From Armatimonadota bacterium (lineage in GTDB: Bacteria; Armatimonadota; UBA5829), in contig JAAYKE010000067.1 of assembly GCA_012522575.1 (NCBI GenBank), forward strand, positions 383 to 64,382: DNA of 64,000 nucleotides, given 5' to 3'. The notes beneath the pieces are model-generated. The model worked only from the letters and a program-made list of their open reading frames with translations. It was not told the origin of the DNA and ran no database searches. A program made the translations under genes and the position numbers. Within the stretch, counting starts at the first letter, position 1. Every line of letters starts with the position of its first letter. Below are positions 30,652 to 63,002 of the stretch, in pieces.

Positions 30652-30652
30652 T

Positions 30653-32568: not shown

Positions 32569-33660
32569 ATGACACCACGAGAAAATCTGCTGGCTTGTTT
32601 GAATCACAAAACACCGCAATGGGTCCCCAGAAGCGGCTCATTTACTCCCTATCAGATTCGACAGTTCAAAGAGAGAACGGGAGAGAGCGATATTGCGGCA
32701 TATTTTGGGATGGATAATCTGGGAGGCATTGGCCTCGGCCCGACCAGGCGCAGAGTCGATTTCTCCAGTTATCACAAATATTATGTTCTGCCGGATCATA
32801 TATCGGAGTATCGCATAGATGAATGGGGGGTGGGATGGGTTCCGGGATCGCTGCTTCATTTTGAGGATATGATCCACCCGATGCATTCCCTTGACAGCCT
32901 TGCGGAGTTTGAGGCGTATCCATATCCCGACCTTGACGCAGCGTATCGACTGGACGGAGTGCGTGAGCGCGTGAGGGAACTGCACGACCTGCAACTGCCT
33001 GTGATAGCATATCCGCTTCAGCTCGGAGGGACGATCTTTGAGAGTGCGTGGTATATGCGCGGGCTGGAAAACTTGCTGACCGATATGCTTTGCAACACTC
33101 AAATCGCTGCATATCATCTGGATCGGCTGACGCAAATGGCCATATCCAACGCGGCTTTTCTGGCCGAATGCGGGTCGGATGTGTTTATTTCAGGGGATGA
33201 TATCGCCACGCAGCGCGGCATGATGATAAGCCCTGAAATGTGGAGAGAATGGCTCAAGCCGCGTTTGGCAAGCATATATGAGGCGGCCAGATCAAAAAAG
33301 CCGGATATACAGATATGGTACCATTCCGACGGCGATTGTCGGGAGGTTATACCGGACCTCATTGAGATCGGAGTCACCATACTAAACCCGGTGCAGCCGG
33401 AGTGTATGGACCCGGCGTGGGTTAAGCGCGAATATGGCCGTGACCTGGCCTTGTGAGGAACTATCGGCACACAGACAACCATGCCGTTCGGCACGCCATC
33501 TGATGTGCGAGAGACGGTTAAGAGGATGATTGATCAGTGTGGGATCGACGGCGGCTTGTTCATCGCGCCGACCCACGTGATCGAGCCGGATGTACCGTGG
33601 GAGAATATCGTGGCTTTATATGATGCCTGCCGCGAATTCGGTGGTGATCCGAAAAGATAA
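32569..33660 (+). pseudogene. URO-D-family (MtaA/CmuA-like methyltransferase / uroporphyrinogen-decarboxylase-family) gene interrupted by an in-frame TGA at 33454-33456. The same frame continues for 68 more codons to a TAA at 33658-33660
   Basis: Track ORF ends ...YGRDLAL*. Downstream in-frame translation GTIGTQTTMPFGTPSDVRETVKRMIDQCGIDGGLFIAPTHVIEPDVPWENIVALYDACREFGGDPKR is the conserved C-terminus of this family. The TGA sits where homologs have Trp (L-x-F-W-G-G-x-D-T-Q). Confidence 0.6.
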
Positions 33661-33673
33661 AAAGTTTGCTCTG

Positions 33674-33919
33674 CTATGCCGCCTGGTGTCGTTTTTTTCG
33701 CGGTCGATGGCGCTGAAACAGCTTGAGCTGGGGACATTCCAGCACGGCGCATAACTCCTGAGGCTGCAAACCCTTGACAAGCAGCGCACACTGGTCGCTG
33801 TTGGTATATGGACAATAAAGCGTATTTTCCGCATCTTCGCTTATTGGGTCGTCCTCGATGTAGTCAAACCATTCTGTACTCACTACACAAACCTCCTTAT
33901 TGCACACCGGCCCAATCAA
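33674..33919 (-). CDS. Small Cys-rich hypothetical protein (81 aa, 7 Cys)
   Basis: ORF only. CPYTNSDQC...CAVLECPQ suggests metal binding. No family recognised. Confidence 0.25.
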   Translation of the reverse strand: MIGPVCNKEVCVVSTEWFDYIEDDPISEDAENTLYCPYTNSDQCALLVKGLQPQELCAVLECPQLKLFQRHRPRKKRHQAA

Positions 33920-33984
33920 CGGCGAATCGCGCGCTGGGATTGTGTGGCTACAGCAAGCATTGTCGGCAGATTTGGCCGAAAGCT

Positions 33985-34875
33985 TCAGGGGGATTTTGCT
34001 GTGAATGTCTCGATTAATCGTACGGGATGGTATGATTGCTTGGCTTTGCGCAGGCCGGGGATTCCGAGGTCCTGCTCCCGGTTGACGTATTTATATGACT
34101 GCGCCTCTGCCTTGCAGAATTCATTGTTGATAAGTTGATACAGGCCGTCGATTTGCGTGTGGGCTTTCTCCGCGTGAATGACCAGAGTATCGTCGTTCAG
34201 TTTTTCTCCCAGCGAGAAAGCGACGATCGCTCCACCGGCGCGAATTGCTCCGCCCACTATGCCGAGTGAGTCGAAATTGGTGAGCATCTGGTTCACCGCG
34301 CACCGCTCTTTGCGCAGACCCTCGATTGTCTCGCACATCTTATGCTCGCACCACAAATCAGCGAAAGCCTCGCACTCGACAGCCACCGACTCATCCATTT
34401 TCACATATTCATACTCTATCTGAGACCTGGCTCGCGCAATGAAGTTTCGCTTGCCGTCGAATCTGCGCCCGGCAAGCTCGATCAGGTCCTGCGCGGCGTA
34501 GACGTAGTCCGAATTGTCGGGATCATACTCGACTATAAGCCCTATATCTTTCATCTCACCGCCCGCTTCGCCGGATATGCGCTCGAATATCACGGGACGG
34601 TCGCTGCGGCGGATCATCTCCTCGACAACCGGCTTAATCGAGCCGACGCCCAGCGGCTCAAGGCTGGAAATGTGCTCATTTTGGTTGTTGATCAGCAAAA
34701 TGTGGTCGTATATGCGGGATAGCTCCGTTTGCTGAGACTCGCGCCAGGCGAATATATTGGTGAAGCTGTACGCGGAGATCTCCGTCGGCCTTTGTGCAAA
34801 GACCGCATCGAAGAAGGGCTTATCTCGCAGAGTTATTTGTCTTGATTGTGGATATTCAGGAATCATATTCATCAA
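33985..34875 (-). CDS. DUF2156 domain protein (homolog of the C-terminal lysyl-transferase domain of MprF/LysX)
   Basis: 296 aa. Family assignment is from overall pattern recall, so it is moderately confident only. Confidence 0.45.
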   Translation of the reverse strand: MMNMIPEYPQSRQITLRDKPFFDAVFAQRPTEISAYSFTNIFAWRESQQTELSRIYDHILLINNQNEHISSLEPLGVGSIKPVVEEMIRRSDRPVIFERISGEAGGEMKDIGLIVEYDPDNSDYVYAAQDLIELAGRRFDGKRNFIARARSQIEYEYVKMDESVAVECEAFADLWCEHKMCETIEGLRKERCAVNQMLTNFDSLGIVGGAIRAGGAIVAFSLGEKLNDDTLVIHAEKAHTQIDGLYQLINNEFCKAEAQSYKYVNREQDLGIPGLRKAKQSYHPVRLIETFTAKSP

Positions 34876-35647
34876 AAATGCGCCAGCGCATAATCTTCAC
34901 CGGCACATTGAACCATTTTCTTTTTGAGCCTGCCGGGGCCTTTCTCACTACAACTTTTCCATCTACCGGACTGGCCTCTATCCAACGCTCGTCTCCATAA
35001 TATATCATAACGTGTTTATCGTCGGCGACGGCCATATCTCCGACCTTGATCGTATTTGTATCGAATCCCGCCAGTTTTTCGGCGCTGCCTATCAGCCTTG
35101 TATACCCGTATTTATCCTGAGCTATATCTTTTGCGTCGATATCGCGCCACCAAAACGACCACAACTTTCTGCCCAACAACTGAGGATTGACTTCCTTTGC
35201 TCCCTGCCGCACCATAGCGTGCCATAGCGCGGCCCTCGCAAGCCCGGCGGAGTCAATTCCGATATCTGTCTCGCCGTTGACCTGATATGGAGTTCCGACA
35301 AACGCCCGCAATCGTTTATAGTAGACCTGCCGAAGCGCATCGGTGTCAGGTGGCTTGCTGCCAAGCACTGCCCAAACCACAAAGAGCGCGCTGAAAAATA
35401 CCGTCGGCCACACAGCCGCGTTTCTTTTGCCTATGCCGGAAAACAGGTAAACAAAACCGGTGAATATGCAGCTAAGCAGCGTCAAGACAAGCAGCAATCT
35501 TATCTGAGCGGTCATAGGAAAAATGCGTACGCCAATGCCGCACATCAGCAGCAATACGCCCGTTACTATCGCGCACAATACCTTGACGCTGATCTGTCGC
35601 GTAGTCTGTGTTTCGCCAGTTTCGGATTCAATTATATCGACCATCAA
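34856..35647 (-). CDS. Membrane-anchored NlpC/P60-like (C40 peptidase fold) protein with Ser in place of the catalytic Cys
   Basis: Two N-terminal TM helices, then GIDSAGLARAALWH (canonical DCSGLV) and GDMAVADDKHVMIYYG (canonical His box). Confidence 0.5.
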   Translation of the reverse strand: MMVDIIESETGETQTTRQISVKVLCAIVTGVLLLMCGIGVRIFPMTAQIRLLLVLTLLSCIFTGFVYLFSGIGKRNAAVWPTVFFSALFVVWAVLGSKPPDTDALRQVYYKRLRAFVGTPYQVNGETDIGIDSAGLARAALWHAMVRQGAKEVNPQLLGRKLWSFWWRDIDAKDIAQDKYGYTRLIGSAEKLAGFDTNTIKVGDMAVADDKHVMIYYGDERWIEASPVDGKVVVRKAPAGSKRKWFNVPVKIMRWRIFDEYDS

Positions 35648-35683
35648 AATATCTACGATCCGCCCGCGCCCATTGTTCCAATA

Positions 35684-36265
35684 TCACTTCGCCAGAGACG
35701 CGATAATACCTTCGGCTGTGTCGATGGAAACCCTTTGTCTCCAATACTTATCCTTGAGCAGCGCAGCATCATGGGAATTGGTCAAAAACCCGATCTCCAG
35801 CAGCACGGAGGGCATATAACGATATGTATCGCGCAGGACTCTGAGGCGGGAATACTGGCTCTGCGAGTCCCATTTTGCTCCCCGGTTGCGCAAATCGTGT
35901 TTTGCCAGTCGATTGACGAGTTGTTGAGCGATTGCATAGCTTCGCCTGTCCCCTTCCGCCACAAAAGCCTCCACTCCGTTTGCGGTCGCCGGCCCTGCGT
36001 TTATGTGGATGGAAACAAACAAATCGCAGTCGGCCTCTACTGCTTTCTTTCCACGTGATTCCAGGGTCACGAGCCTGCTATCCGGCCTGGTCACAATCGT
36101 TTTGATTCCGGCCAGGCGAATATTATGACCGATTCTGATGACAAAATCCAGGGCAAGCTCGTCCTCCACAAGGCCATTTGCCGCGCATCCGGTGTGGTGC
36201 AGACCACGATTTGCACCGTGGCCTGCATCGAGCGCGATTATGCGATTGTTGTCCTTCGCATTCAC
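35684..36265 (-). CDS. N-acetylmuramoyl-L-alanine amidase (Amidase_3 catalytic domain, no signal peptide; endolysin-type)
   Basis: IIALDAGHG, TRPDS, VSIHINAG and LLEIGFLTNSHD motifs. The start was reassigned to a GTG after a GGAGGT RBS (MNAKDNNRIIALDAGHG). The track ORF to 36688 over-extends. Confidence 0.75.
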   Translation of the reverse strand: MNAKDNNRIIALDAGHGANRGLHHTGCAANGLVEDELALDFVIRIGHNIRLAGIKTIVTRPDSRLVTLESRGKKAVEADCDLFVSIHINAGPATANGVEAFVAEGDRRSYAIAQQLVNRLAKHDLRNRGAKWDSQSQYSRLRVLRDTYRYMPSVLLEIGFLTNSHDAALLKDKYWRQRVSIDTAEGIIASLAK

Positions 36266-36270
36266 GCTGA

Positions 36271-36597
36271 TTACCTCCGAACCCTCTTCCACTGCTGATA
36301 TACGTGCTCGACCAGCAGGTTTGCGATGCTCTGCGGCACTGGAAAACCAAGCTCGGCTATGCATATCTTCTGAAGATAGATGACCGCCTGCTGGCGACGT
36401 TCGTCTGAGGACAATTCCGCTATCGCCCCCGCCCGTTCGATGGCGTCGGTGATTCTCTTTGCGCCGATCCTCTTTAGCCATTTGCGCGCCCAGCTCGGCA
36501 GCCTGTCCTTCTGGCTCAAATATGTGGTCAGCGCGCCCGTCACGCCGAGAGCAAGCGTAACCCAATCCCGGGTAGAAACAGTATCGAGTGTGATCAT
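36271..36597 (-). CDS. Putative holin-like small membrane protein (single N-terminal TM)
   Basis: 108 aa with WVTLALGVTGALTTYL hydrophobic segment. Its stop abuts the amidase start. The call rests on position only. Confidence 0.3.
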   Translation of the reverse strand: MITLDTVSTRDWVTLALGVTGALTTYLSQKDRLPSWARKWLKRIGAKRITDAIERAGAIAELSSDERRQQAVIYLQKICIAELGFPVPQSIANLLVEHVYQQWKRVRR

Positions 36598-36692
36598 ATA
36601 GGCTCCTTATATTATAGTTGATTGTGGGTTCTTGATTCTGAGGAGAGTGACGGCCCGCGAACCGCCGCCGATAAGTCCGGTTATCCAAATGC

Positions 36693-36992
36693 TTAATTGA
36701 GAATGGCGATTCTCACGACCGGTTCGCCGGCTATGCGGTGGACGGCGGTTTTGAGGACGGCATAGGTGCGGCCGTCGCGTGTCAGGGTATCTCCCACGCC
36801 TATGACTACATCCGGCGTTGTGGCCAGCATAAGAGCAGGATGAGTTATGCCCATTCGTTCGATATCATCCAAATACAGGCTCATATTGCCCGTATCGAGG
36901 AGCTTGAACATCCCGGCTCCGGTATTGCCGTTAATTACATATTCCTCCCCGAAACGCCGGAGCTTTTCGGCGAACCGCTCGGCAAATCGCAT
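36693..36992 (-). CDS. Phage head-closure / head-tail joining-like protein
   Basis: 99 aa. Its size and sequence pattern resemble the HK97 gp7-like head-tail joining family. Translationally coupled to the connector gene (GAGGTG-TAG-CAG-ATG). Confidence 0.4.
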   Translation of the reverse strand: MRFAERFAEKLRRFGEEYVINGNTGAGMFKLLDTGNMSLYLDDIERMGITHPALMLATTPDVVIGVGDTLTRDGRTYAVLKTAVHRIAGEPVVRIAILN

Positions 36993-36995
36993 CTG

Positions 36996-37427
36996 CTACA
37001 CCTCCTCTTTGATGCTGAATATAGGCTCTGCATCAGCGGTTGTGCTGGAGCAATGCGTCTCGGAGTCCATCGGCATGGCGCTTTTAAGATACGGAGCCAG
37101 CCGCGCGTGGCCTTGCCGAGTCAGGTCGACTCCGGATACTCCTGATGGCCCGATGGTGACTCCCGCCACGCCGAACTGCTCGGTTGCGCCGGTCTCTCTG
37201 CGCATCTGCTCGATGAATTCACCGGTTATGATTTCGAGAATCCCCAACTTGAGCGTGCCCTGCAACCCTGCGTTGAGCGTGTCGTTAAGATACATATCCG
37301 CGATGGAGTATTCGATCGGAGCCTGCATCTCGGAAATGAGCGCGGCTATAGCCGTATCGTAGTCAGTTACTGCGGAGTCAATGCCTGCTTTGCGCTTGAT
37401 ATCTGCGACAGTCAGGGTAATCGCCAT
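36996..37427 (-). CDS. Phage gp6-like head-tail connector protein
   Basis: The N-terminus MAITLTVADIKRKAGIDSAVTDYDTAIAALISEMQAPIEY matches the Phage_connect_1 pattern. Confidence 0.5.
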   Translation of the reverse strand: MAITLTVADIKRKAGIDSAVTDYDTAIAALISEMQAPIEYSIADMYLNDTLNAGLQGTLKLGILEIITGEFIEQMRRETGATEQFGVAGVTIGPSGVSGVDLTRQGHARLAPYLKSAMPMDSETHCSSTTADAEPIFSIKEEV

Positions 37428-37436
37428 TTGCGCCTC

Positions 37437-37802
37437 CTATCCGTAAAATGAGATATGAATCGTATCGTCTTGCCCTCCCTGCACGGGAGTGAAATCATCG
37501 ACGTCCAGGATCGCATAATACACCGTAGTCCCCTCCGGCACATCGTCGTCAATTGAATGCAAATCCGACAGAATATAGGCTGCATTGGATATGCTGATCG
37601 GGTCTTTGTAACCAATAATCAGCAACACATTAGAGATCGTTCTTGCGCTGAAGAACAAGCGAAAACGGGTTCCTCCGGTCACCTGGAAGCTGCCGTCGCT
37701 TTCTCCATCGAGGGAGTGCACCAGACCGCCGGTTCGCGTCCTGGCATCTCCGCCGGATGCGATATGCACCGCCACCGGCATTATATTTTTCAGATTGTTC
37801 AT
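37437..37802 (-). CDS. Hypothetical phage structural protein
   Basis: 121-aa ORF located between the capsid and connector genes. Confidence 0.3.
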   Translation of the reverse strand: MNNLKNIMPVAVHIASGGDARTRTGGLVHSLDGESDGSFQVTGGTRFRLFFSARTISNVLLIIGYKDPISISNAAYILSDLHSIDDDVPEGTTVYYAILDVDDFTPVQGGQDDTIHISFYG

Positions 37803-37909
37803 CGTATGGCTCTCCGCTTTGGGTCTTTGTTATATGGAGTCAGAAGTCTGGGTGACGATTCGCAAACCGCCACCCGTGGTGTTATTTTTCAGCTTCATTG
37901 CTGTGGCTG

Positions 37910-38817
37910 TCAGCTCACCTGGCTGCCGTAGGCCATCTGCCAGAGGCCATAGCCGGTGTTATACCGGGCGCGCACGCCATAGACAAACTCATCCCGCATA
38001 AACCCGCTCTCCGAATCCGCTTCGAGGGCCGCAAACTCAACCGGGGTTCGGCTCTGGAGGATGATCGGCTTGACGACACCTTTAGTCGAAAGCACAAACC
38101 AGTCGTTGACATCGGTCAGATATGGCGAGACAAGCAAATCGAGTTTGCCTTTGAGCACGTTTGAAGCGGCTCTTGATGTCGTGGAACCCTCCTCCGGCCA
38201 ATATGAACTCTCCAGAAGTTCCATAGCAACCCACTGCATATCCGGCGGCACTACCAGCAAATCCGGAGTTACTCCCATCAATTTGCCGCGGTCATCTCGA
38301 TATTTCATCATCGCGGTAATCGCGCTCTGCAACGCGGAAGCGGATAATGCTGCGGTTCCCTTGTTCGATTGAGACCCGGAATCCCCCTCGGAGTGATCTG
38401 TAGCAAAGAACGCCTAGCCGTCGTAGCACTTGCCGGTGAATCCGTTTTTGAGCAGGCCGAACGCTAGTTCGTCCATGTGCCTTTTCGCCTCGCGGGCCAG
38501 CGACACCACCCGCAGCTTGATCTGGCCATATTTATCGTCCTCTATGGCCGCCCTCTCGATGGCTATCGAGGACTCCCAGGTCTTGTTGCGTATCGAATAA
38601 TCGTGTTCGAGCAAGCCCAGCGGCATGCGCTCGTCGACGAACTCCCGAATTGCAGGAACCGCACCCAGCCAGGAATAAGTTTCCTGATCTGACCCGGAGC
38701 TTATCACTGTTGCGATGCGGGAATGTTCGCCGGCGGTGGCATCAAGGGCCTCGAAGAATACGGTTTTAAGCCCATCCTCAAGCAGTTTGGGCATATCTGA
38801 TCTTGTAAGCGGCATAT
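37910..38817 (-). pseudogene. Mu gpT-like major head (capsid) protein gene containing an in-frame TAG at 38414-38416. The N- and C-terminal halves are called as separate ORFs in the track
   Basis: Track ORFs 38414..38890- and 37910..38332- are in the same frame (84-nt gap, no other stop): ...GFTGKCYDG*AFFATDHSEGDSGS...LQSAITAMMKY.... Mu-gpT hallmarks are YSWLGAVPAIREF, CYDG-x-FFATDH, VVKPIILQS, FMRDEFVYGVRAR and GYGLWQMA. The likely real start is MPLTRSDMPKLL after an AGGAG RBS. Confidence 0.6.
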
Positions 38818-38967
38818 TTTTCTCCTGTTTGGATGTGATTGGTTGATGGTTGGCTGCGCATGCGGACGGACGATGATCTGCCCGTCGCATTCCAAAGCAG
38901 CCTCAAAGCAGAAAGCCCGGCGCTGAGAACACCGGGCCGATAGATGATATTGCACTGGCAGGCGAAC

Positions 38968-39576
38968 CTACTCCAGCGATAACTCTCCGATTTGGCTTAT
39001 GCCTTCGTTGTCGACATATTTGACCGCTATTTCGAAGGCCTGCTGTGGTGAAATGGGTTCAAATGAATGCACCATGATGTTCATTTGCACCGTGCGCGTG
39101 TGGTCGCCGATTTTCTGCAGCATGCGAATGCCTCTCAGCAGTTTTGCGCCTCGTCTGCGGTAGAATTCTATGCGCCGACGTGCGATATCTGCATCCGGCG
39201 AGTCCTCCGGCACTTCCACCTCGAAGACCACGAATTTCGCACCGCTTTCCTTTGCTCGTCTTACCACCTCGTCGTAGCACACTGCCCCAACTCCGCTGCC
39301 CCGCAGCGCCGGCAAAGTGGCGAGATACCAAAGCGCAAAGGCATTTATTTCGGGCTTGGTGCGATAAAACATAAGCCCGGCAAACTCCCCGCGCTCGTCC
39401 AATGCGGCGATCAGCCGACTTTCCACCCCGTCTTCCTTGATATCCGGGTTGAGGAACCGAAAAAAACCGGAAACCAGTATCTTCTCTTCGGGAGGAAACG
39501 CGGTCTCATACAAATCGAGCCAGGGCATAAAAAGAGCGTCGTTGATATCGGTTATTTCATAAAAAGTAATCTTCAT
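38968..39576 (-). CDS. GNAT-family N-acetyltransferase embedded in the capsid module
   Basis: 202 aa with an acetyl-CoA binding region (LATLPALRGSGVGAVCYDEVVRRAKESGAKFVVFEV). Confidence 0.65.
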   Translation of the reverse strand: MKITFYEITDINDALFMPWLDLYETAFPPEEKILVSGFFRFLNPDIKEDGVESRLIAALDERGEFAGLMFYRTKPEINAFALWYLATLPALRGSGVGAVCYDEVVRRAKESGAKFVVFEVEVPEDSPDADIARRRIEFYRRRGAKLLRGIRMLQKIGDHTRTVQMNIMVHSFEPISPQQAFEIAVKYVDNEGISQIGELSLE

Positions 39577-39611
39577 ACCGATTTTTTCGGCATCAATTGC
39601 TCTATTACCTG

Positions 39612-40028
39612 CTAGGCGGCATACCTGTCGATTCTGATCCTCACCGCAGTGGCGGATATGGACTCGACTGCGAACCCGGCGGTAATATTGGCCGTGGTTG
39701 CGGCATCGGTGACGGTCTGATTGTCCACGATATGGAACCCCACGCCCACATCGGTCTGAGCGCCGTTCGCGCCGCCGTCTACAAATACAAACGTGCCGGT
39801 GGTCTGGACGCGAATGCCGATATCCCCTGCGCTGCCGCCGGAGTTGTCTACGGTCTCATAGGCGACTCCGGCGAATGTTTCGGATGCGGTGTCGCTCGCG
39901 TTGGTCGCATAGCCGCTGGCGTTGATATTCACCAGCGCGCCTTTGGGAATTTTCACATTTGCCATAGGATAGCAGATGATCGCCCCATCCTTTCTTTTGG
40001 ACTCCCTGGCTGTGGTGGTTGCTGTCAT
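39612..40028 (-). CDS. Hypothetical Gly/Thr-rich phage structural protein (possible decoration/scaffold-associated)
   Basis: 138-aa ORF with beta-rich composition, located between the protease and capsid genes. Confidence 0.3.
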   Translation of the reverse strand: MTATTTARESKRKDGAIICYPMANVKIPKGALVNINASGYATNASDTASETFAGVAYETVDNSGGSAGDIGIRVQTTGTFVFVDGGANGAQTDVGVGFHIVDNQTVTDAATTANITAGFAVESISATAVRIRIDRYAA

Positions 40029-40044
40029 AAGATTCTCCTTTCCG

Positions 40045-40758
40045 TTATCTGCTCCTGTATTTTTCTACCAGCCCGCTGGTCACGCCGAGCTTTGCATACA
40101 ACTCCGGCTCTTCGACTTCCCCGGCTGCAGGCGCGACCTCCGAAAACTCAATCACCTTTGGCTGAGATTCCAAAAACCATCTGAAAACCTGAGAGATCGG
40201 AGTCGGTCGGTCGGCAAATGCGATTGTGTCGGAATCCTGCGAGCATAAAATAGCCCTTGCAAAGACCTCCGCTGCGGGCGCAATTTTGCCGCTTCTTTTT
40301 AGCTGATCTATGGCAATTTGCGCATCTTTTTCGGCTACTTCGCGGCGCAGAGCTTCATCGGAACTGCCAAATACCGAGCTGAGTTCTCCGTCGAGCCGAA
40401 CGCAATCCGCCTCCCCGAACACGGCAGCATCGGCTATCCTCGGCTCACGAACAAGGGATACCTCAGATATCCGGCTCTTGTCCTTGACAATGGCCACCGA
40501 AAGCCGTCTTGCGTTGGCAGATTTGACCAGTTCCCAGGCTGCTTTGGTAAAACACAGCCTCCCGAAAAGCTCCTTGCCTTTACGATAAACGTTTTTCAGC
40601 ACCCCAAGCGCGCCATCAAAAGGCGTCGAGGAGTGCTCAATGCGCAGCGGCGCATCGGATGTGTTGGCAATGATTCGATCGAGGTCCTCCTCGGTGATCT
40701 CAATGCCTCGATCCGGATAGCTGCCCGCCTCAAACAATTTAGCCTCACGTTCGATCAC
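40045..40758 (-). CDS. Mu gpI-like prohead protease / scaffold protein
   Basis: 237 aa. The N-terminus LFEAGSYPDRGIEITEEDLDRII resembles Mu-like prophage protein I, and its position after the portal gene fits. Confidence 0.4.
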   Translation of the reverse strand: MIEREAKLFEAGSYPDRGIEITEEDLDRIIANTSDAPLRIEHSSTPFDGALGVLKNVYRKGKELFGRLCFTKAAWELVKSANARRLSVAIVKDKSRISEVSLVREPRIADAAVFGEADCVRLDGELSSVFGSSDEALRREVAEKDAQIAIDQLKRSGKIAPAAEVFARAILCSQDSDTIAFADRPTPISQVFRWFLESQPKVIEFSEVAPAAGEVEEPELYAKLGVTSGLVEKYRSR

Positions 40759-40830
40759 AATTACCTCCTGAATTTGTTTGCATGTGAGAAATATATGGCA
40801 GTCCCATACGCTTTTATGTTCCGTGTAAAA

Positions 40831-42015: not shown

Positions 42016-42066
42016 AAAACACCTCGGGTTTGGACGTTGGAAATTGGTTGTTGGAAGTTGGGCGGT

Positions 42067-46208: not shown

Positions 46209-46227
46209 TGCCGATCACCTGGATATT

Positions 46228-47001: not shown

Positions 47002-47016
47002 TGTATCACCTGCAAT

Positions 47017-52492: not shown

Positions 52493-52518
52493 GGGGTAAA
52501 CAGGCGAAACATCTCGGA

Positions 52519-54491: not shown

Positions 54492-54594
54492 AAATTACCT
54501 CCACCGGACAAATAATACCATTGATAGCTTGCCTAGTAAAGCGGAGGGCGTCTCATTTTCGTAAACGCCCTCCTATCGGCGAAGGTTACGCCTA

Positions 54595-54780
54595 CTACTC
54601 AATCACAATCGACTCTGTCGGACAGGATTCGCAGGCCTCTTTGACTTTATCTTCCAGCCATGCCGGCACAACTTCGACCTTCACAATCGCAATACCCTCG
54701 TCGGGCATTTCAAACACTTCCGGACAAATCTCAGCACACAAACCGCATGAAATGCAGTCGTCGTTAATTGTAACTTTCAT
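54595..54780 (-). CDS. 4Fe-4S single-cluster ferredoxin
   Basis: 61 aa with CISCGLCAEICP...ESCP cysteine pattern. Confidence 0.85.
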   Translation of the reverse strand: MKVTINDDCISCGLCAEICPEVFEMPDEGIAIVKVEVVPAWLEDKVKEACESCPTESIVIE

Positions 54781-54979
54781 CGTCGTTGCTCCTTATGCAA
54801 ATATGAAAGCGCCTGCTGTAGCAAGGCTCTGAATTTATCATATCACGCTTCGGATGCAGAAGAAAGCAGGCGCTCCAAGATCGGCTTCCGCAGGTCTCAG
54901 TTCATCCTCTGTTTGACCAACCCTGCTCGAAAACGTTATGATATTGTCGGCATTATAAGCAGATGGGAGGTGAGGTCGG

Positions 54980-56035
54980 ATGGCGAGCGATGATTTCAAG
55001 TTGACATCGTTGTCGCATGGAGCCGGTTGAGCCTGCAAGTTGAGCCCACAAGCTCTTGCGCAGGTTCTGCGTCAAATGCCCTTAATAACTGATCCTAACG
55101 TACTCGTCGGCCTGTCGACATCGGACGACGCCGCCGTATATCGCATATCTGACGATGTCGCGGTGGCTCTCACTGTGGACTTTTTTACTCCGGTAGTGGA
55201 CGACGCCTATGAGTTCGGCAGGATAGCGGTCACAAACGCCCTCTCTGACATCTACGCGATGGGCGCAAGGCCCGTGCTCGCCTTGAATCTGGTCGCCTAT
55301 CCATCACGCACCCGCCCTCTCGATACCCTTGCGGAAATACTGCGAGGCGGAGCGGATCAGGCCACGGCGGCGGGTGTGAGCATAGTCGGAGGCCATTCCA
55401 TAGACGACCCTGAGCCAAAATATGGGTTGTGCGTTTTGGGAATAGCGAACCCGGCATCTATTGTCACAAATTCAGGAGCAAGTATCGGGGATCGGCTGAT
55501 TCTGACCAAACCCATAGGAACGGGCATCATAACCACAGCCATAAAACACGATACCGCACCTGCCCGGGTCGCTCAATCAGCGATTCGAGTTATGACCACG
55601 CTCAACGGCCCTGCCTCGGAAGCTGCTCTCAAGACAGGGATAAATGCCTGCACGGATGTCACCGGATTTGGCCTGTTGGGACACTTGCACGAGATGACAT
55701 CGGCCAGCGGAGTCGGCGCAATTATACGTATGCGCGATGTGCCGTTGATCGACGGAGTCAGACAACTGCTGGACCTCGACGAAGCTCCCGGCGGAACCTA
55801 CACTAACCGCGACCATCTGAACGAGGAAGATGCGGTGACGTGGAGTGAAGGCGTATCCGAGGAAGATCAACTCGCGTTGTGCGACGCTCAGACCTCGGGC
55901 GGACTGCTGATCAGCGTATCCGCAGACAAATCCGAGCCTCTGCGACGCGCGTTGATTGACGCGGGAGCGCTTTGCGCATCGGAAATCGGCGAAATAATCG
56001 ACGACAAGTCCGGCAAAATCCAAGTCACGCCCTAA
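54980..56035 (+). CDS. selD: Selenide, water dikinase (selenophosphate synthetase) with in-frame TGA selenocysteine at 55028-55030
   Basis: The track ORF starts at 55040 (TTG) but the frame is open upstream: ATG(54980) MASDDFKLTSLSHGAG-TGA-ACKLSPQAL..., matching E. coli SelD LTQYSHGAGCGCKISPKVL with Sec at the Cys17 position. A hairpin CCUGCAAG...CUUGCGCAGG starts 2 nt after the TGA (SECIS-like). GGGAGGTGAGG RBS. Confidence 0.85.
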
Positions 56036-56128
56036 CCCGCATACATATAACACCGCAGGACTATCCGACCGCAGTTCACAGCAATTTCTTGCCTGTCGAC
56101 AAGCTCCATTATGGTATAATCTAGCATC

Positions 56129-56596
56129 GTGAGCAATGAACAAAAACACAAAAATATCTCGATTACCAACCGCAAAGCGCGGCATGAGTATCATATTGGG
56201 GAAACTTTCGAGGCAGGGCTTGTGCTGGTCGGAACCGAGGTCAAATCGATCAGAGCGGGACAGGCCAGCATAACGGAGGCTTACTGCAAGATGGAGAACG
56301 GGGAGATATTCATCTACGGCATGCACGTGGCTCCATTTGAGCAGGGCAATCGGTTCAATGTCGATCCGCTGCGCCCTCGCAAACTGCTGCTGCGCAGAGG
56401 TGAAATCAACCGCATCAGCCGCCAACTCGCAGAAAAAGGCCTGACACTCATCCCTCTGAAGGTATTCTTCAGCCGCGGTTATGCCAAAATGAATATAGGA
56501 TTGGCGCGCGGCAAGAAGCTATGGGATAAGAGGGAGTCCATCACTCAGAGGGATACCGAGCGCGAACGGCTGCGGCAGGAATCCGAACGATACTAA
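56129..56596 (+). CDS. smpB: SsrA-binding protein SmpB
   Basis: 155 aa with typical SmpB N-terminal KNRKARHEY..ETFEAG and a C-terminal basic tail. Extended -10 (TGGTATAAT) ~15 nt upstream. No ssrA is visible nearby. Manual coordinates here may be off by ~10 nt relative to the track. Confidence 0.9.
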   Translation: MSNEQKHKNISITNRKARHEYHIGETFEAGLVLVGTEVKSIRAGQASITEAYCKMENGEIFIYGMHVAPFEQGNRFNVDPLRPRKLLLRRGEINRISRQLAEKGLTLIPLKVFFSRGYAKMNIGLARGKKLWDKRESITQRDTERERLRQESERY

Positions 56597-56678
56597 CGTC
56601 ATTTTCGATGTGCGGGAAATCTGCTTATAATCGCAATAAGAACAGGCCGAAGCGGGTCTGCAATGGAGAGATCAATTT

Positions 56679-57611
56679 ATGGAGCATATTTTAGTAACCG
56701 GAGGCGCCGGGTTTCTGGGATCGCATTTGTGTGATCTGCTGCTGAAATATGGCCACAAAGTCACGGCGATGGACAATCTGCTCACCGGCAGCATAGACAA
56801 CATCGCGCATAATGTCGACAATCCCCTGTTTAGGTTCGTAAAATACGACGTAACCAACTATCTCTACCTCGATGAACACGTTGACGCGATTTTTCACTTC
56901 GCATCGCCGGCAAGTCCTATCGATTATGCACAGTTCCCTATCCCCACGCTCAAGGTTGGTTCGCTGGGCACGCACAAGACCCTGGGGTTGGCCGTGGCGC
57001 ACAAAGCGGTATATCTGCTGGCATCGACATCGGAAGTCTACGGTGACCCGCAGGTGCATCCGCAAAACGAAAACTACTGGGGCAATGTGAACCCGATAGG
57101 GCCGCGCGGAGTATATGACGAGGCCAAGCGGTTCGCCGAAGCCCTGACTATGGCATATCATAACGCTCATGGAGTCGACACCCGCATTGTGCGCATATTC
57201 AACACCTATGGCCCGCGAATGAGGCTGCATGATGGTCGAGTGGTCCCAACTATGATATACCAGGCGTTGAAAGGTGAGCCGCTGACGGTCTTTGGAGACG
57301 GCAAACAGACGCGCAGTTTCTGCTATGTCGATGATGAAGTAGAGGGCATATATCGACTCTTCAAGTCCGGCTGCGTCGAGCCTGTCAATATAGGCAATCC
57401 CGATGAGATGACGGTGCTGGAGTTCACGCACCTTGTGAAAAGACTGACGAATTCAACCAGCGAGATAGTCTTTCGTCCGCTGCCGATAGATTACCCAACC
57501 AAGAGACAGCCGGACATTTCCAAGGCGAAAAAACTACTCGACTGGCAGCCGATAGTCAGCATCGAAGAAGGCTTGAAAGAGACCATCAAATATATAAAAA
57601 CGCTGATTTAG
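56679..57611 (+). CDS. uxs: UDP-glucuronate decarboxylase (UDP-xylose synthase), SDR family
   Basis: [17 protein letters not shown]-binding motif, catalytic YDEAKR, 310 aa. Confidence 0.85.
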
Positions 57612-57719
57612 ATCGGTGTTGAGTCGGCGATGTGCATCTGTCTGGTCGATGAGTTGTTTGGGTATTTTCGCGTTTCCCTGCATTCGGCTTTTGAGTCTGC
57701 TATAATATGTTCATTGTAG

Positions 57720-59054
57720 ATGAGCTGGAGCCGAAACCACTTGAAAACACGCTGCATAATCGCGATTATATTAGGGCTGACGCTGGCCGCATTTTTGGCG
57801 GGTTGCGGGGAAAAGCCAACAGGCAGCAGTAATGGCGTCGTATCGATTTCCGTATGGCATCCGTGGGGAGGCTCTCAAAAGGAGCGTCTGGCGGAGGTAG
57901 TAGAGGAGTTCAACCGCACTCATCCCAACATTAAAGTGCGGGCGGTGTTTACTCCCAACGATCTCGACTCCAACCAGAAGTTCTTTACCTCAGTGGCAGC
58001 CAACAAGCCCCCTGACGCGATCTTCGTGGACGGGCCGCAGGTGGCGGCATGGGCGGAACAGGGAGCGATTCAGCCACTCGACGATTATATTGCGCAATCC
58101 GCGATCAAGCCGACGGATTATTTTGCGCCGTGCTGGGAACAGACCTCTTATCGCGGCAAGATATGGGCGATGACCTACTGCGCCGACCCCAACTTCGCGT
58201 TTGCGTGGAACAAAAAAGTCTTTCGAGACTGCGGCCTTGATCCTGAGAAACCACCGACCACCATCGAAGAACTCGATAAATTCAACGATCGTATCACCAA
58301 AATAGAAAGCGGCCGAATCATTCGCATAGGCATCATCCCCTGGGCGCAATTCGGCAACGCCAACGCGACTTTCACATGGGGATGGGCATTCGGAGGAGGT
58401 TTCTACGACCCTGTCGCACATAAAATCACTGCCAACGACCCCAAAGTCGTAAAAGCGATGGAGTGGATGACCAGCTACGCCAGAAAATATGACCCTAATA
58501 AGATCAACGCATTCACCCAGGGCTTCGGCAGTCGAGATCAAAACCCGTTCTATATAGGCCGTATTGCGATGCAGTGCCTGCATATTTCGCAGATCGACGA
58601 CATCAACACCTACGCGCCCGACCTCAACTACGGCCTCACATTCATTCCGGCCCCTTCAACAGGGGAGATGCATTCGTCGTGGGTGGGCGGATGGTGTCTG
58701 GGGATTCCCAAAGGCTCCAAACACCCGAAAGAGGCATGGGAGTTTATTCGATGGTGCTGTCGAGACCCCAAAGGAACCGAGGCGGTCGGCAGGTTGCAGT
58801 CCCTGCTGCCGGGATATCGAAAATCGCCGTTTCTCGATGAAGTGCGCAAGCGGCGCGGTTATTCGCAGTTTCTGGATATATTGGAAGCGTGCAGACATCA
58901 GCGGCCGGTTATGCCTGCGCAGTCTTTTTATATGGGATCGCTGGAGAGGGCTGTGGATTACTGCATCTACGGCAAAATGACTCCAAAGCAGGCCCTGGAT
59001 GCGTCTGCGCTCGAAACTCAGACTGAGCTTGATCTGCGGCTGGCGGGGAGGTAA
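57720..59054 (+). CDS. Sugar ABC transporter substrate-binding lipoprotein (family 1 SBP)
   Basis: Signal peptide with lipobox LAGC, and extracellular solute-binding family 1 pattern. Confidence 0.8.
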   Translation: MSWSRNHLKTRCIIAIILGLTLAAFLAGCGEKPTGSSNGVVSISVWHPWGGSQKERLAEVVEEFNRTHPNIKVRAVFTPNDLDSNQKFFTSVAANKPPDAIFVDGPQVAAWAEQGAIQPLDDYIAQSAIKPTDYFAPCWEQTSYRGKIWAMTYCADPNFAFAWNKKVFRDCGLDPEKPPTTIEELDKFNDRITKIESGRIIRIGIIPWAQFGNANATFTWGWAFGGGFYDPVAHKITANDPKVVKAMEWMTSYARKYDPNKINAFTQGFGSRDQNPFYIGRIAMQCLHISQIDDINTYAPDLNYGLTFIPAPSTGEMHSSWVGGWCLGIPKGSKHPKEAWEFIRWCCRDPKGTEAVGRLQSLLPGYRKSPFLDEVRKRRGYSQFLDILEACRHQRPVMPAQSFYMGSLERAVDYCIYGKMTPKQALDASALETQTELDLRLAGR

Positions 59055-59056
59055 AT

Positions 59057-59971: not shown

Positions 59972-60975
59972 TGAAAAATCGAGGCGGATTCCCCCGGGTT
60001 ATAACCTATATTGCGCTTGTTGTTCTCGGCACGGCGTTTACGCTGCCGTTTTTCTGGCTGCTTTCGACCTCCCTCAAACCGGATTCACGAATCCAGCAAT
60101 GGCCGCCGGATATCATCCCGATGCTGCCTGTCAAGGTCAAGCTCGACGGCAGGCAACGCGAGGTGCGCCTGACTCCAGATGGCGCTAAAGTCGCCTTGAT
60201 GGAGCGGCTCGAAGGCGGGAAGGCAAGCATTAAGCCGCTGGATGGCGGCAAGACGAAGATCGTGGACGGAGATCAGCTTAAACCGGTCATACGCCCGGGG
60301 TTTCAGTGGTCGAACTACACGCGGGGACTGGTTTTCATCCCGTTCTTCCAGCAGCTTAGAAACACGCTGATAATCTCGATATTCACCGTCATCGGCACAA
60401 TTTTGAGCTGCAGCCTGGTGGCCTATGGGCTTTCGAAGATCGACTGGAAGGGTCGCAATGTGCTGTTTGTGGTGATGTTGTCTACTATGATGTTGCCTGC
60501 GCAGGTGACTATGATCCCGGTCTTCGCGATTTTCGTTAAACTGGGCTGGGTGGACACGTTTCTGCCGCTCATCGTGCCGAGTTTTTTGGGAACTCCATTC
60601 TTCATCTTCCTGCTCAGACAGTTCTTTTTGGGGATACCGAAGGAACTCTCCGAGGCAGCGAAACTCGACGGGTGTGGAGAGTTTGGCATATATAGAAGGG
60701 TGATAATGCCGCTTTCCAAGCCCGCTTTGGCCACGGTCGGGTTATTCACTTTTATGGCGGCGTGGAACGACTTTATGGGGCCGTTGATTTATCTTCTCGA
60801 CGAGTCGAAATATACGCTGTCGCTGGGTTTGGCTATGTTCACCGGTCAATATGGCAACGAATACGGCATGCTGATGGCGGTGTCCGCAGTCGTCACTATC
60901 CCGATTATCGTGCTATTCTTCTTCACGCAGCGCACGTTTATACAGGGGATGACTATGAGTGGGATAAAAGGATGA
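59971..60975 (+). CDS. Sugar ABC transporter permease (MalG/UgpE-like) with an extended periplasmic loop
   Basis: EAA loop (EAAKLDGCGEFGIYRRVIMPL). ATGA overlap with the downstream gene. Confidence 0.85.
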   Translation: MKNRGGFPRVITYIALVVLGTAFTLPFFWLLSTSLKPDSRIQQWPPDIIPMLPVKVKLDGRQREVRLTPDGAKVALMERLEGGKASIKPLDGGKTKIVDGDQLKPVIRPGFQWSNYTRGLVFIPFFQQLRNTLIISIFTVIGTILSCSLVAYGLSKIDWKGRNVLFVVMLSTMMLPAQVTMIPVFAIFVKLGWVDTFLPLIVPSFLGTPFFIFLLRQFFLGIPKELSEAAKLDGCGEFGIYRRVIMPLSKPALATVGLFTFMAAWNDFMGPLIYLLDESKYTLSLGLAMFTGQYGNEYGMLMAVSAVVTIPIIVLFFFTQRTFIQGMTMSGIKG

Positions 60976-63002
60976 AACACGAAAATAATAAGTTTGGACA
61001 ATCGCAGATTACGCAAGCCGCTGATATGCAGGTGAGCCACGATTTATTCCGACGCTGGTTTGCCGGGCCGGGAGACATTCCAATCTCATTTCTGCTCGAC
61101 GGGGAAGTCATCAATGGCATCCCGTAGGGATGGAACCCAACCGTAAACAGGCGTCTTATCGATGCCAACATCACTGAGACAACGTTCGATGGCACGGACA
61201 TCAAAACCGGCCTGAACCTGCGGATTGAGTTCACGCAGTATCGGGACTATCCGGTCATTGAATGGGTGGCGTGGTTCACCAACACGAGCGAGAAACCCAC
61301 GCCGGTCATAAGCGACATTCTGGCTCTGGATGGATCAGTCGACGACGCGTCACCGGTCGTGCACCACTGGAACGGCGACTTCTACCACGAGGAAGGCTAC
61401 ACGCCATTCCAAAGTCCCCTTCGGCCCGGCGACAAACTCGACTTCGCTCCCGACGGCGGACGATCATGCGACCGGGCATTCCCCTACTACCGCGTCAAAT
61501 TCGACAACTGGGGACTCTCCCTCGCCATCGGATGGCCTGCTCAGTGGGCGGCATCTTTCATCTGCGAAACAGGCGGCCTGCGCCTTGTGGCGGGTCAGGG
61601 CAGGACAAATCTGCGGCTGATGCCGGGAGAGCGCATCCGAACGCCTCGGATTACCATGCTGTGCTGGTTCGGTGATGATTCCAGAGCGGTGAATTTGTGG
61701 CGACGCTGGTATCTGGCTCATATCCTTCCCAGACCAAATGGCCAACCGTTGAGACCTCTTCTTGCGTGTTCTGGAACCGATGACGGCGAGGAGTTCACGG
61801 AGGCGACTGAAGGCAACCAGATTGCCTGTATCAGCAAATTCGGCACACACGACATTCACCCTGATGTCTGGTGGATCGATGCCGGATGGTACCCCTGCCG
61901 TGACGGGGAAGGCAATCGCAGATGGTGGCGCACCGGCGAATGGGAGCCTGACCCTGATCGGTTCCCCAACGGTCTCAAGCCCATATCCGATTGGGCTGCC
62001 GAGAGCGGCGCCGATCTGCTGCTCTGGTTTGAGCCGGAAAGAGTGCAGCCCGGCACTCAAATCGACGTGCAGCGCCCGGAGTGGTTGCTCAAAGCCCAGG
62101 GCGACGACAACGGGCTGTTGAACCTTGGCAACCAGGAGTGCCGCCAATGGCTTACGGATCACTTTTGCAGTCTGATTCAGGACAACGGAGTAAAGATATA
62201 CAGACAGGATCACAACTTTGCGCCGCTGCAGCACTGGCGCGAGAATGAACCCGAGGACCGCCAGGGCATACATGAGAACCTGCACGTGCAGGGTTATCTT
62301 CAGTTCTGGGACGATCTGCTGGCGAGAAATCCGGGCCTGTGGATTGACTCATGCGCGAGCGGAGGGCGACGTAATGACCTTGAAACGATGCGCCGATCCG
62401 TGCCCCTGCACTATACCGACTTCGGCTATGGAAATCATCCGATCAAGCTTGCGTTCCATCGCACGCTGTTCGAGTGGATACCCTACTTCAAGGAATCCAC
62501 TCTTTCCTGGGATAAAGCGGAAACGCCGACCGATTTTTCCGCCGTTGACAGATTTGACCGCGCAGTAGACAGCTATTCGTACCACTGCGGCTTTGCGGCT
62601 ATGCTCTATGCCAGTCTGAACATAAGGCGCGAAGACTATGACTATGCCCTTGCCGGGAAGATGATTGCCGTCTGGCGCAGAGCCGCCGATGTGCTACTCT
62701 ACGGCGACTACTATCCCCATACGCCGTTTCACCGGAGCATTGAGAAGTGGGTCGCGTGGCAGTTCGATCGTCCCGAACGCGGCGAAGGCTTTATTCAAGC
62801 GATTCGGCTCCCGCTTGCGCCGGACGATACTATCACCATCCGCCCAAAGGCGCTCTGTGAAGACGCCCGCTATGTATTCGAGAATGGCGAAACCGGGGAC
62901 GCCATTGAGTTGTCTGGGGAGACGCTGATTCGTGACGGATTTGCGATTACTTGCCCGACCAGAAACGCTGCGATATGGTTCTATAGGTCCAAACACTCAT
63001 AG
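60972..63002 (+). pseudogene. GH36-like alpha-galactosidase gene with an in-frame TAG at 61125-61127; contiguous reading frame from the ATG at 60972 to the stop at 63002
   Basis: Track ORFs 60762..61127+ and 61266..63002+ share a frame, and the 138-nt gap has no stop: ...ISFLLDGEVINGIP*GWNPTVNRRLIDANITETTFDGTDIKTGLNLRIEFTQYRDYPVIEWVAWFTNTSEKP.... Catalytic-domain motifs are WWIDAGWY, LLLWFEP, YRQDHN and IDSCASGGRRND (GH36/GH27 clan). The ATG overlaps the permease stop (ATGA). Confidence 0.55.

What the first reader, a model, noticed from the sequence alone, without database searches (positions are those of the whole stretch)
33454..61127. Cluster of single in-frame stop codons (1 TGA, 2 TAG) in otherwise intact genes within one 64-kb window, in a selenocysteine-using organism
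Three unrelated genes (a methyltransferase-like gene, a phage capsid gene and a glycosidase gene) each carry exactly one internal stop with a long conserved open frame on both sides. There are no frameshifts or other decay. Genome-wide codon reassignment is excluded: TAG and TGA clearly terminate confident genes here (hemA, thuA and terL end in TAG; dnaJ and lysC end in TGA). What remains is (i) a MAG/assembly consensus problem, (ii) recent nonsense mutations in an amber/opal-suppressing background (a suppressor tRNA, or Pyl-type decoding for TAG), or (iii) regulated readthrough. Three such events per 64 kb is far above what is typical for a free-living bacterium.
Basis: inference. Interest (0 to 1): 0.6.

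Follow-up and report, generated by a model that had tools for sequence, protein, structure and literature searches.

The report
Private nonsense substitutions in one MAG
The three in-frame stop codons are real in this sequence, but they are single-base changes found only in this metagenome-assembled genome and look like random, unselected substitutions (most likely consensus errors), not recoding, suppression or readthrough.

Summary
The three stops exist: TGA 33454-33456 (+) in a URO-D-family gene, TAG 38414-38416 (-) in a Mu gpT-like capsid gene, and TAG 61125-61127 (+) in a GH36-like alpha-galactosidase gene. The window matches an NCBI Armatimonadota MAG (locus tags GX139_) that annotates the split pieces.

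Independent assemblies of the same biogas-reactor population are 99.94-99.96% identical, without indels in unique sequence. They carry sense codons at all three sites: TGG (Trp), AAG (Lys) and GAG (Glu). A sister strain (98.6% identical) agrees with them at all 9 testable differences, so these changes arose on the MAG branch.

The stops belong to about 21 scattered private substitutions. In coding sequence these are 5 synonymous, 11 non-synonymous and 3 nonsense, with Ts:Tv 7:14. That matches random expectation. Natural divergence in this species looks different: 150 synonymous, 63 non-synonymous, 0 nonsense, Ts:Tv 156:73.

TAG and TGA end 21 and 16 of 58 genes. The one genuine recoding event, selenocysteine in selD, has no difference from the one other assembly covering it.

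Verdict: most likely consensus error, otherwise very young nonsense alleles. There is no evidence for Sec, Pyl, suppression or programmed readthrough. Low interest.

The parts
32569..33660 (+). URO-D-family (uroporphyrinogen decarboxylase-like) gene, 363 codons, interrupted at codon 296. NCBI annotates it as two pieces, NLN75862.1 (295 aa) and NLN75863.1 (59 aa).
   Evidence: Pfam URO-D, 1.8e-24, across the stop. The pieces are identical to P0122/P0123.
33454..33456 (+). In-frame TGA. It is TGG (Trp) in assemblies L001 and L040 and Trp in all 19 aligned homologues. G>A at 33456.
37910..38815 (-). Mu gpT-like major head (capsid) gene, 301 codons, interrupted at codon 134.
   Evidence: (Mu-like_gpT called intact, 301 aa, in L001)
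38414..38416 (-). In-frame TAG. It is AAG (Lys) in L001, L007 and L040. Homologues have Lys or Gln. A>T on the coding strand (T>A at 38416 on +).
60972..63002 (+). GH36/melibiase-like alpha-galactosidase gene, 676 codons, interrupted at codon 52. NCBI annotates only a 578-aa remnant from GTG 61266 (NLN75895.1).
61125..61127 (+). In-frame TAG. It is GAG (Glu) in L002 and L003. Homologues have E, K, Q, D or A. G>T at 61125.
54980..56035 (+). Control: selD (selenide, water dikinase) with a genuine Sec codon, TGA 55028-55030, in the motif SHGAG-U-ACK. A hairpin starts 1 nt after the UGA. No difference was found at these bases between the window and L002.
   Evidence: z = -2.2; TIGR00476, 386 bits; no difference at this site
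40831..40833 (-). Not part of the phenomenon. This is the ordinary TAG terminator of the Mu-like portal gene. The next gene (protease/scaffold-like, GTG 40758) happens to lie in the same frame.
554..57816 (.). The other scattered MAG-private single-base substitutions: 554, 9646, 24123, 24554, 27678, 29445, 32197, 32951, 40785, 40793, 45804, 54660, 55306, 55482, 57492, 57536, 57816, and possibly 9058.

Best explanation
The three stops are single-base substitutions found only in this deposited MAG contig: TGG>TGA, AAG>TAG and GAG>TAG. They belong to about 21 scattered private substitutions (about 3.6 per 10 kb) whose pattern is that of random, unselected base changes. The most likely cause is base or consensus error in this short-read metagenome assembly, for example at low coverage. 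In the real organism the three genes are most likely intact, as they are in every other assembly of the same population. If translated as written, each codon simply terminates. No recoding mechanism is involved.

Shown: the changes are private, they arose on the MAG branch, their spectrum is random-like, and TAG and TGA are used normally as terminators.

Inferred: the cause is assembly error rather than very recent mutation.
For: Source of the window. Its split ORFs are identical to NCBI proteins of an Armatimonadota MAG (GX139_06090, GX139_06095, GX139_06255; contig 99,468 bp).

Comparison with other assemblies.
- Independent assemblies of the same population were compared over about 58 kb: ENA ERZ941572, JGI 3300038805 and Logan SRR3166067. 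They are 99.94-99.96% identical, with no indels outside an intergenic repeat at 48013-48071, and carry sense codons at all three sites.
- The intact URO-D and GH36 proteins are also on record from the LSQX01 metagenome assembly, at protein level only.
- The sister strain L040 (98.64% identical, a different sample) agrees with the other assemblies at 9 of 9 testable differences, so all are derived on the MAG branch (two-sided binomial P = 0.004).

Pattern of the private changes.
- Private coding changes: 5 synonymous, 11 non-synonymous, 3 nonsense. Random expectation is 23.6%, 72.8% and 3.7%.
- Natural divergence, L040 versus L001: 150 synonymous, 63 non-synonymous, 0 nonsense. The difference gives Fisher P = 2e-4.
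- Private Ts:Tv is 7:13, leaving out the shared haplotype block (7:14 if 9058 is counted as private), against 156:73 for natural divergence (P = 0.006). The full 10:17 set fits the one-third transitions expected of random change.
- All six substitution classes occur.
- One private change (D272Y) hits the DDPxxRxPD motif, conserved in the aligned human UXS1 chains.

Absence elsewhere.
- The truncated URO-D and GH36 protein pieces are listed only under NCBI sources.
- Two window protein alleles carrying a private substitution (FGGY kinase, UXS-like epimerase) are on record in no indexed assembly. That index does not appear to hold this MAG.
- Differences among the other assemblies are few and mostly clustered in haplotype blocks. 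L002 and L003 show one isolated difference in 16.7 kb.
Against: - No reads could be mapped, so neither error nor a real allele is shown directly.
- Real strain heterogeneity exists in this population. The haplotype block at 9074-9143 is shared by the window and a Logan contig, so some private sites could be genuine minor alleles.
- Very closely related genomes can show dN/dS near 1 because selection has not yet acted.
- I expect short-read de Bruijn assemblies to introduce scattered substitution errors only rarely. That is my own expectation, not a tool result.
- That this MAG belongs to the MEGAHIT-assembled PRJNA602310 set (method in PMC7038595) is my recollection from the accession style. 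It was not verified here.
- Nonsense changes are mildly over-represented (3 of 19 against 3.7%, P about 0.03), although the window was chosen for having them.
Confidence: 0.6

Rival explanations
1. These are genuine, very recent nonsense mutations (young pseudogenes or low-frequency alleles) in a sub-lineage of the reactor population that this assembly happened to capture. The three genes are truncated and non-functional in those cells, and purifying selection has not yet removed the alleles.
For: - The population is demonstrably heterogeneous: the alternative haplotype at 9074-9143 is shared with a Logan contig, and L007 and L003 carry private variants.
- All changes are derived on one branch, which also fits a real young lineage.
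- A ratio of non-synonymous to synonymous changes near neutral is known for very recent divergence (established knowledge).
Against: - The flat substitution spectrum (Ts:Tv about 0.5) differs from this species' natural Ts:Tv of 2.1.
- Private changes hit strongly conserved residues, such as Trp296 of URO-D and Asp272 of the UXS-like enzyme.
- None of the private alleles that were looked up appears in any other indexed assembly.
- The capsid gene is 66-91% conserved across many homologues, several from Armatimonadota MAGs, which implies selection.
Confidence: 0.33
2. The stops are decoded: Sec at the URO-D TGA, Pyl or an amber suppressor at the two TAGs, or regulated readthrough producing full-length proteins.
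For: - The organism has Sec machinery: selD carries a Sec codon.
- Long homologous frames continue after each stop.
Against: - The TGA replaces a nearly invariant Trp, not Cys or Sec, and the 99.95%-identical assembly has TGG.
- The downstream fold is not significant (z = -1.25), whereas the selD fold gives z = -2.2.
- The TAG positions are Lys/Gln and Glu/Lys/Gln/Asp/Ala in homologues, and AAG or GAG in near-identical assemblies.
- Neither gene family is a known Pyl family (own knowledge).
- Decoding both stop types would need two different suppressors.
- No tRNA was found in the window or in the related loci.
Confidence: 0.03
3. There is a genome-wide or prophage-specific stop-codon reassignment, such as TGA to Trp or TAG to Gln as in recoded phages.
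For: TGA stands where Trp is expected, and the capsid TAG stands where many homologues have Gln. On the surface these are the classic reassignment pairs.
Against: - TAG ends 21 and TGA ends 16 of 58 genes, including terL, portal and other genes of the phage-like cluster itself.
- There is only one in-frame stop per affected gene.
- The closest relatives have Lys (AAG), not Gln, at the capsid site.
- The GH36 TAG aligns with Glu.
Confidence: 0.01

Closest known systems
Interrupted genes caused by consensus or base errors in draft metagenome-assembled genomes
   Same: These are isolated single-base differences from every other assembly of the same population. Their spectrum is random (Ts:Tv about 0.5), their split into synonymous, non-synonymous and nonsense changes is close to random, and all arose on the branch leading to the MAG.
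   Different: They are substitutions only, with no indels, and the assembler is presumed to be a short-read one. The cause (low coverage or read errors) could not be checked without reads.
Young nonsense-mutation pseudogenes or segregating loss-of-function alleles in bacterial populations
   Same: Each affected gene has a single premature stop, its relatives are intact, and there are no frameshifts.
   Different: The accompanying private substitutions do not show the species' natural transition bias. There are three such events in about 60 genes at only 0.04% divergence.
Bacterial selenocysteine recoding (UGA plus SECIS), as in the selD gene of this same window
   Same: There is an in-frame TGA in an otherwise intact gene, in an organism that uses Sec.
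   Different: The URO-D TGA aligns with Trp rather than Cys or Sec, is TGG in near-identical assemblies, and lacks a significant downstream hairpin. The selD TGA sits in the catalytic G-U-x-C-K motif and shows no difference from the other assembly that covers it (L002).
Pyrrolysine (UAG) decoding and amber suppression
   Same: There is an in-frame TAG followed by an open frame.
   Different: The TAGs are not conserved in orthologues. The gene families (phage capsid, GH36) are not Pyl families. TAG is the joint most common terminator in the window (21 of 58 genes, equal with TAA).
Stop-codon recoding in bacteriophages (TAG to Gln or TGA to Trp in late genes)
   Same: A phage-type capsid gene carries an in-frame TAG at a position where many homologues have Gln.
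   Different: There is a single occurrence. Neighbouring head genes (terL, portal and others) terminate with TAG. The closest relatives encode Lys (AAG). No suppressor tRNA was found.

Membership tests
Selenoprotein gene (Sec-UGA recoding) - URO-D TGA | The UGA aligns with Cys or Sec in homologues | tested here: not met
   All 19 aligned homologues have Trp at this column (W296, nearly invariant), including the 99%-identical P0001.
Selenoprotein gene (Sec-UGA recoding) - URO-D TGA | The UGA is conserved in close relatives | tested here: not met
   TGG in L001 (99.95% identical) and in L040 (98.6% identical).
Selenoprotein gene (Sec-UGA recoding) - URO-D TGA | A SECIS-like hairpin lies immediately downstream of the UGA | tested here: inconclusive
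   The 60-nt fold is -16.6 kcal/mol, z = -1.25, and 19 of 200 shuffles fold as well. The positive control selD gives z = -2.2. No bacterial SECIS model was applied.
Selenoprotein gene (Sec-UGA recoding) - URO-D TGA | Sec machinery is present in the genome | tested here: met
   selD, with its own Sec codon, is in the window. selA, selB and selC were not seen in the window.
Pyrrolysine decoding - the two TAGs | The UAG is conserved at the same position in orthologues | tested here: not met
   Capsid site: AAG in L001, L007 and L040, with Lys or Gln in 17 homologues. GH36 site: GAG in L002 and L003, with E, K, Q, D or A in homologues.
Pyrrolysine decoding - the two TAGs | pylTSBCD genes are present | not testable with these tools
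   Only 64 kb of the genome, plus flanks of related contigs, was available. These contain no tRNA.
Stop-codon reassignment (code 4/25-like, or phage TAG/TGA recoding) | The reassigned codon is not used as a terminator | tested here: not met
   Of 58 gene ends, 21 are TAG, 16 TGA and 21 TAA. Genes of the phage-like cluster are among them.
Stop-codon reassignment (code 4/25-like, or phage TAG/TGA recoding) | The codon occurs in frame many times across genes | tested here: not met
   Only 4 in-frame stops occur in 59 genes, and one of them is the selD Sec codon.
Suppressor-tRNA background | A tRNA with a CUA or UCA anticodon is present | tested here: inconclusive
   No tRNA of any kind was found in the window or in 8 related loci. 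The rest of the genome was not available.
Assembly-private substitution (consensus error or very recent mutation) | Independent assemblies of the same population carry a sense codon | tested here: met
   Met at all three sites.
Assembly-private substitution (consensus error or very recent mutation) | An outgroup shows the change arose on the branch of this assembly | tested here: met
   L040 agrees with L001 at 9 of 9 sites, including 33456 and 38416. Site 61125 lies outside L040, so its polarity rests on L002, L003 and homologues with sense codons.
Assembly-private substitution (consensus error or very recent mutation) | The accompanying private changes have an unselected, random spectrum | tested here: met
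   Private coding changes are 5 synonymous, 11 non-synonymous and 3 nonsense, against a random expectation of 24%, 73% and 3.7%. Ts:Tv is 7:13 to 10:17. Both differ from natural divergence (P = 2e-4 and P = 0.002-0.006).
Assembly-private substitution (consensus error or very recent mutation) | Read-level support distinguishes error from a real allele | not testable with these tools
   No read data or mapping tool was available.

The most novel reading that the evidence does not exclude
The MAG faithfully records a real sub-lineage of this Armatimonadota population. That lineage has an unusual, flat mutational spectrum (for example a repair-deficient mutator) and tolerates premature TAG and TGA codons in a conserved capsid-like gene and two enzymes, because near-cognate or suppressor-tRNA readthrough keeps them partly functional.
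Probability: 0.03. Interest if true: 0.4.

Novelty: not a real feature. Interest (0 to 1): 0.07.

Why it matters
The main value is as a caution. In-frame stops in MAGs can imitate Sec, Pyl or suppressor recoding, and here one even sits in a genuinely Sec-using organism. Comparing the contig with independent assemblies of the same population, and with a sister strain, separates conserved recoding from private noise. The selD UGA shows no difference from the one other assembly that covers it, whereas the three flagged stops are unique to this MAG.

There is also an annotation consequence. The deposited record annotates pieces of two of these genes instead of the intact genes (NLN75862.1, NLN75863.1, NLN75895.1). 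The capsid gene's annotation in that record was not checked. No new biology follows from the flagged stops.

Tried and rejected
- Sec at the URO-D TGA: rejected. Homologues have Trp, the sister assemblies have TGG, and there is no significant hairpin.
- Portal/protease junction at 40831 as the 'capsid' stop: rejected. These are two genes that share a frame, with a ribosome-binding site and a GTG start for the second. The real capsid site is 38414-38416.
- A shared G:C>A:T (deamination) origin for the three stops: rejected. The changes are G>A, A>T and G>T, and the overall spectrum is flat.
- A shared sequence motif around the three sites: none was seen in the contexts printed.
- Finding the MAG, or stop-carrying alleles, in public collections with site-spanning patterns. 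There were no matches in genome contigs, metagenome contigs for two sites or viral contigs, so these gave no information.
- Extending beyond the window on the MAG contig by exact-protein look-up. This failed because the MAG does not appear to be in that index, so a genome-wide split-gene rate could not be measured.
- The SNP cluster at 9074-9143 was first counted as private. It was then reclassified as a real alternative haplotype, because a Logan contig from SRR3166067 shares it.
- The Rfam scan found only a c-di-GMP-I riboswitch and nothing at the stop sites.
Full report
**Observation**

The window carries three single in-frame stops in otherwise open, homologous reading frames.

- TGA 33454-33456 (+) is codon 296 of a 363-codon URO-D-family gene, 32569-33660.
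- TAG 38414-38416 (-) is codon 134 of a 301-codon Mu gpT-like major head gene, 37910-38815.
- TAG 61125-61127 (+) is codon 52 of a 676-codon GH36/melibiase-like alpha-galactosidase gene, 60972-63002. Its ATG overlaps the stop of the upstream permease gene.

A look-alike at 40831-40833 is not an in-frame stop. The Mu-type portal matches its Pfam profile end to end and terminates there. The next gene has its own AGGAGG ribosome-binding site and GTG start, in the same frame.

TAG ends 21, TGA 16 and TAA 21 of 58 gene ends. No tRNA gene lies in the window. The only Rfam hit is a c-di-GMP-I riboswitch.

**Where the window comes from**

The split ORFs are identical to NCBI proteins NLN75862.1 (295 aa), NLN75863.1 (59 aa) and NLN75895.1 (578 aa). 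These belong to a MAG named Armatimonadetes/Armatimonadota bacterium, with locus tags GX139_ and a contig of 99,468 bp.

The same protein clusters contain intact versions (363 aa and 676 aa) from the LSQX01 metagenome assembly, ENA, JGI and Logan. LSQX01 and SRP058235 (PRJNA283612) are biogas-upgrading reactor metagenomes (PMC5985405).

I recall, but did not verify, that MAGs with this accession style belong to PRJNA602310. That project's MAGs were assembled with MEGAHIT and binned with MetaBAT2 (PMC7038595).

**Comparison with independent assemblies**

I fetched contigs of the same population: ENA ERZ941572 (L001, L003, L004, L007), JGI 3300038805 (L002, L006) and Logan SRR3166067 (L005, L008). 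Together they cover about 58 kb of the window at 99.94-99.96% identity. There are no indels outside an intergenic repeat at 48013-48071.

At all three sites they carry sense codons:

| Site | Other assemblies | Window |
|---|---|---|
| 33456 | TGG (Trp) | TGA |
| 38416, coding strand | AAG (Lys) | TAG |
| 61125 | GAG (Glu) | TAG |

Wider homologues agree.

- Trp is nearly invariant at the URO-D column.
- The capsid position is Lys in the closest relatives and Gln in most others.
- The GH36 position is E, K, Q, D or A.

The stops are therefore not conserved recoding sites. The TGA is not a Sec codon: there is no Cys or Sec in homologues, and the downstream fold is not significant (z = -1.25).

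The window contains its own positive control. The gene selD (54980-56035; TIGR00476, 386 bits) has TGA 55028-55030 in the catalytic SHGAG-U-ACK motif, followed at once by a hairpin (z = -2.2). No difference from L002 was found at these bases.

**The stops are part of a larger set of private substitutions**

The window differs from the other assemblies at 27 positions, plus 45804.

Six of these, 9074-9143 upstream of lysC, are shared with a Logan contig. They form a real alternative haplotype block.

The remaining 21 or so are scattered and private to the window.

| Measure | Window-private | Random expectation (window's own codons) | Natural divergence, L040 vs L001 |
|---|---|---|---|
| Synonymous | 5 | 23.6% | 150 |
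| Non-synonymous | 11 | 72.8% | 63 |
| Nonsense | 3 | 3.7% | 0 |
| Ts:Tv | 7:13 excluding the block, 10:17 in all | one third transitions | 156:73 |

(The private counts and the random expectation come. The natural divergence comes.)

- Two further private changes are intergenic.
- All six substitution classes occur.
- The sister strain L040 comes from a different sample (Logan SRR8925753, 98.64% identical). It agrees with L001 at all 9 testable differences, so every one is derived on the MAG branch (two-sided binomial P = 0.004).
- The private set differs from natural divergence in the share of synonymous changes (Fisher P = 2e-4), in Ts:Tv (P = 0.002-0.006) and in nonsense content (P = 5e-4). 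Its transition share fits one third.
- One private change, D272Y in a UDP-glucuronate-decarboxylase-like enzyme, destroys the first Asp of the DDPxxRxPD motif, which is conserved in the aligned human UXS1 chains.
- Two window protein alleles carrying a private substitution are on record in no indexed assembly. That index does not appear to hold this MAG, so this shows only absence from other assemblies.
- Differences among the other assemblies are few and mostly clustered. L002 and L003 show one isolated difference in 16.7 kb.

**Interpretation**

The three stops are the conspicuous members of a set of random-looking, unselected, branch-private single-base changes.

- Consensus or base error in the deposited MAG is the most likely cause (about 0.6).
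- The main rival is that they are genuine, very young mutations or minor alleles of a heterogeneous population (about 0.33). Only read mapping can separate these two.
- Decoding by Sec, Pyl, a suppressor tRNA or programmed readthrough has no support (about 0.03).
- Codon reassignment is excluded by terminator usage (about 0.01).

Three nonsense changes among 19 coding changes is only mildly above the random expectation (P about 0.03). The window was flagged because of them.

**What led nowhere**

- Pattern scans of genome contigs, metagenome contigs and viral contigs across the sites found nothing.
- The MAG contig itself does not appear to be in the exact-protein index. I could not extend beyond the window or measure a genome-wide split-gene rate.
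- No tRNAs occur in any near-identical or related locus fetched.

**Side observations**

The capsid gene sits in a compact head-and-packaging cluster of about 10 kb. It holds terS-like, terL, Mu-type portal, protease-like, a virion structural protein, an acetyltransferase, gpT capsid, four small ORFs, an amidase and a weak minor-tail-like ORF. No integrase, tail tube or tape-measure gene was recognised.

The part of this cluster that the fetched loci reach (up to the 138-aa virion protein gene) lies in the same order next to the URO-D gene in two other Armatimonadota species, L009 and L012. That points to a vertically inherited, possibly domesticated element. It also makes a naturally fixed nonsense codon in its capsid gene less likely.

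**Verdict**

The recoding and suppression interpretations are not supported. The finding is an assembly-private artefact or a trivial young mutation, and is of low interest.

Noticed in passing
window 54980-56035 (+), Sec codon 55028-55030: A genuine selenoprotein gene. selD has an in-frame TGA in the SHGAG-U-ACK motif and a hairpin that starts 1 nt after the UGA. The gene caller used for the related contig (L002) truncated it to 319 aa, starting at 55076.
   Followed up: yes
window 33985-43744 (-); L009 11384-16960; L012 11386-20939: A compact phage-like head and packaging cluster of about 10 kb: terS-like, terL, Mu portal, protease-like, a virion protein, an acetyltransferase, gpT capsid, four small ORFs, an amidase and a weak minor-tail hit. 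No integrase, tail tube or tape measure was recognised. The portion reached by the fetched loci lies in the same order beside the URO-D gene in two other Armatimonadota species. Capsid homologues, several from Armatimonadota MAGs, are 66-91% identical. It may be a domesticated or GTA-like element.
   Followed up: partly
window 31912-32037 (+): A c-di-GMP-I riboswitch (Rfam RF01051, 64 bits) lies upstream of a small ORF (32194-32388, 64 aa). The ORF's function is unknown.
   Followed up: no
window 9074-9143 (possibly also 9058): A block of 6-7 linked differences within about 85 bp, in the leader or intergenic region upstream of lysC. The window and a Logan contig from SRR3166067 share one haplotype. 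The ENA assembly of the same run has the other. This shows real micro-heterogeneity in the population.
   Followed up: partly
window 3922-4130, 47978-48070, 63079-63358: An intergenic repeat family of about 90-190 bp (88-97% identical copies, internally duplicated at 63079-63358). Two of the other assemblies' contigs end or become unalignable at the 48-kb copy.
   Followed up: no
window 46228-47001 and 47017-47790 (-): Two tandem Peptidase_M55 (DppA-like) paralogues, 78% identical at the DNA level. They lie in the same frame and are separated by a TAA, which could be misread as another split gene.
   Followed up: partly
L005 1-19 (Logan SRR3166067 contig): This contig starts with AGATGTGTATAAGAGACAG, which I recognise as the Nextera transposase adapter. 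It is a reminder that the comparison assemblies also carry artefacts at their ends.
   Followed up: no
L012 10001-12266 (CAVQDB010000002.1): In this more distant Armatimonadota MAG, the URO-D and LPG_synthase_C homologues align as several tblastn segments. This suggests indel-type frame breaks in that assembly. They are unrelated to the substitutions seen here.
   Followed up: no
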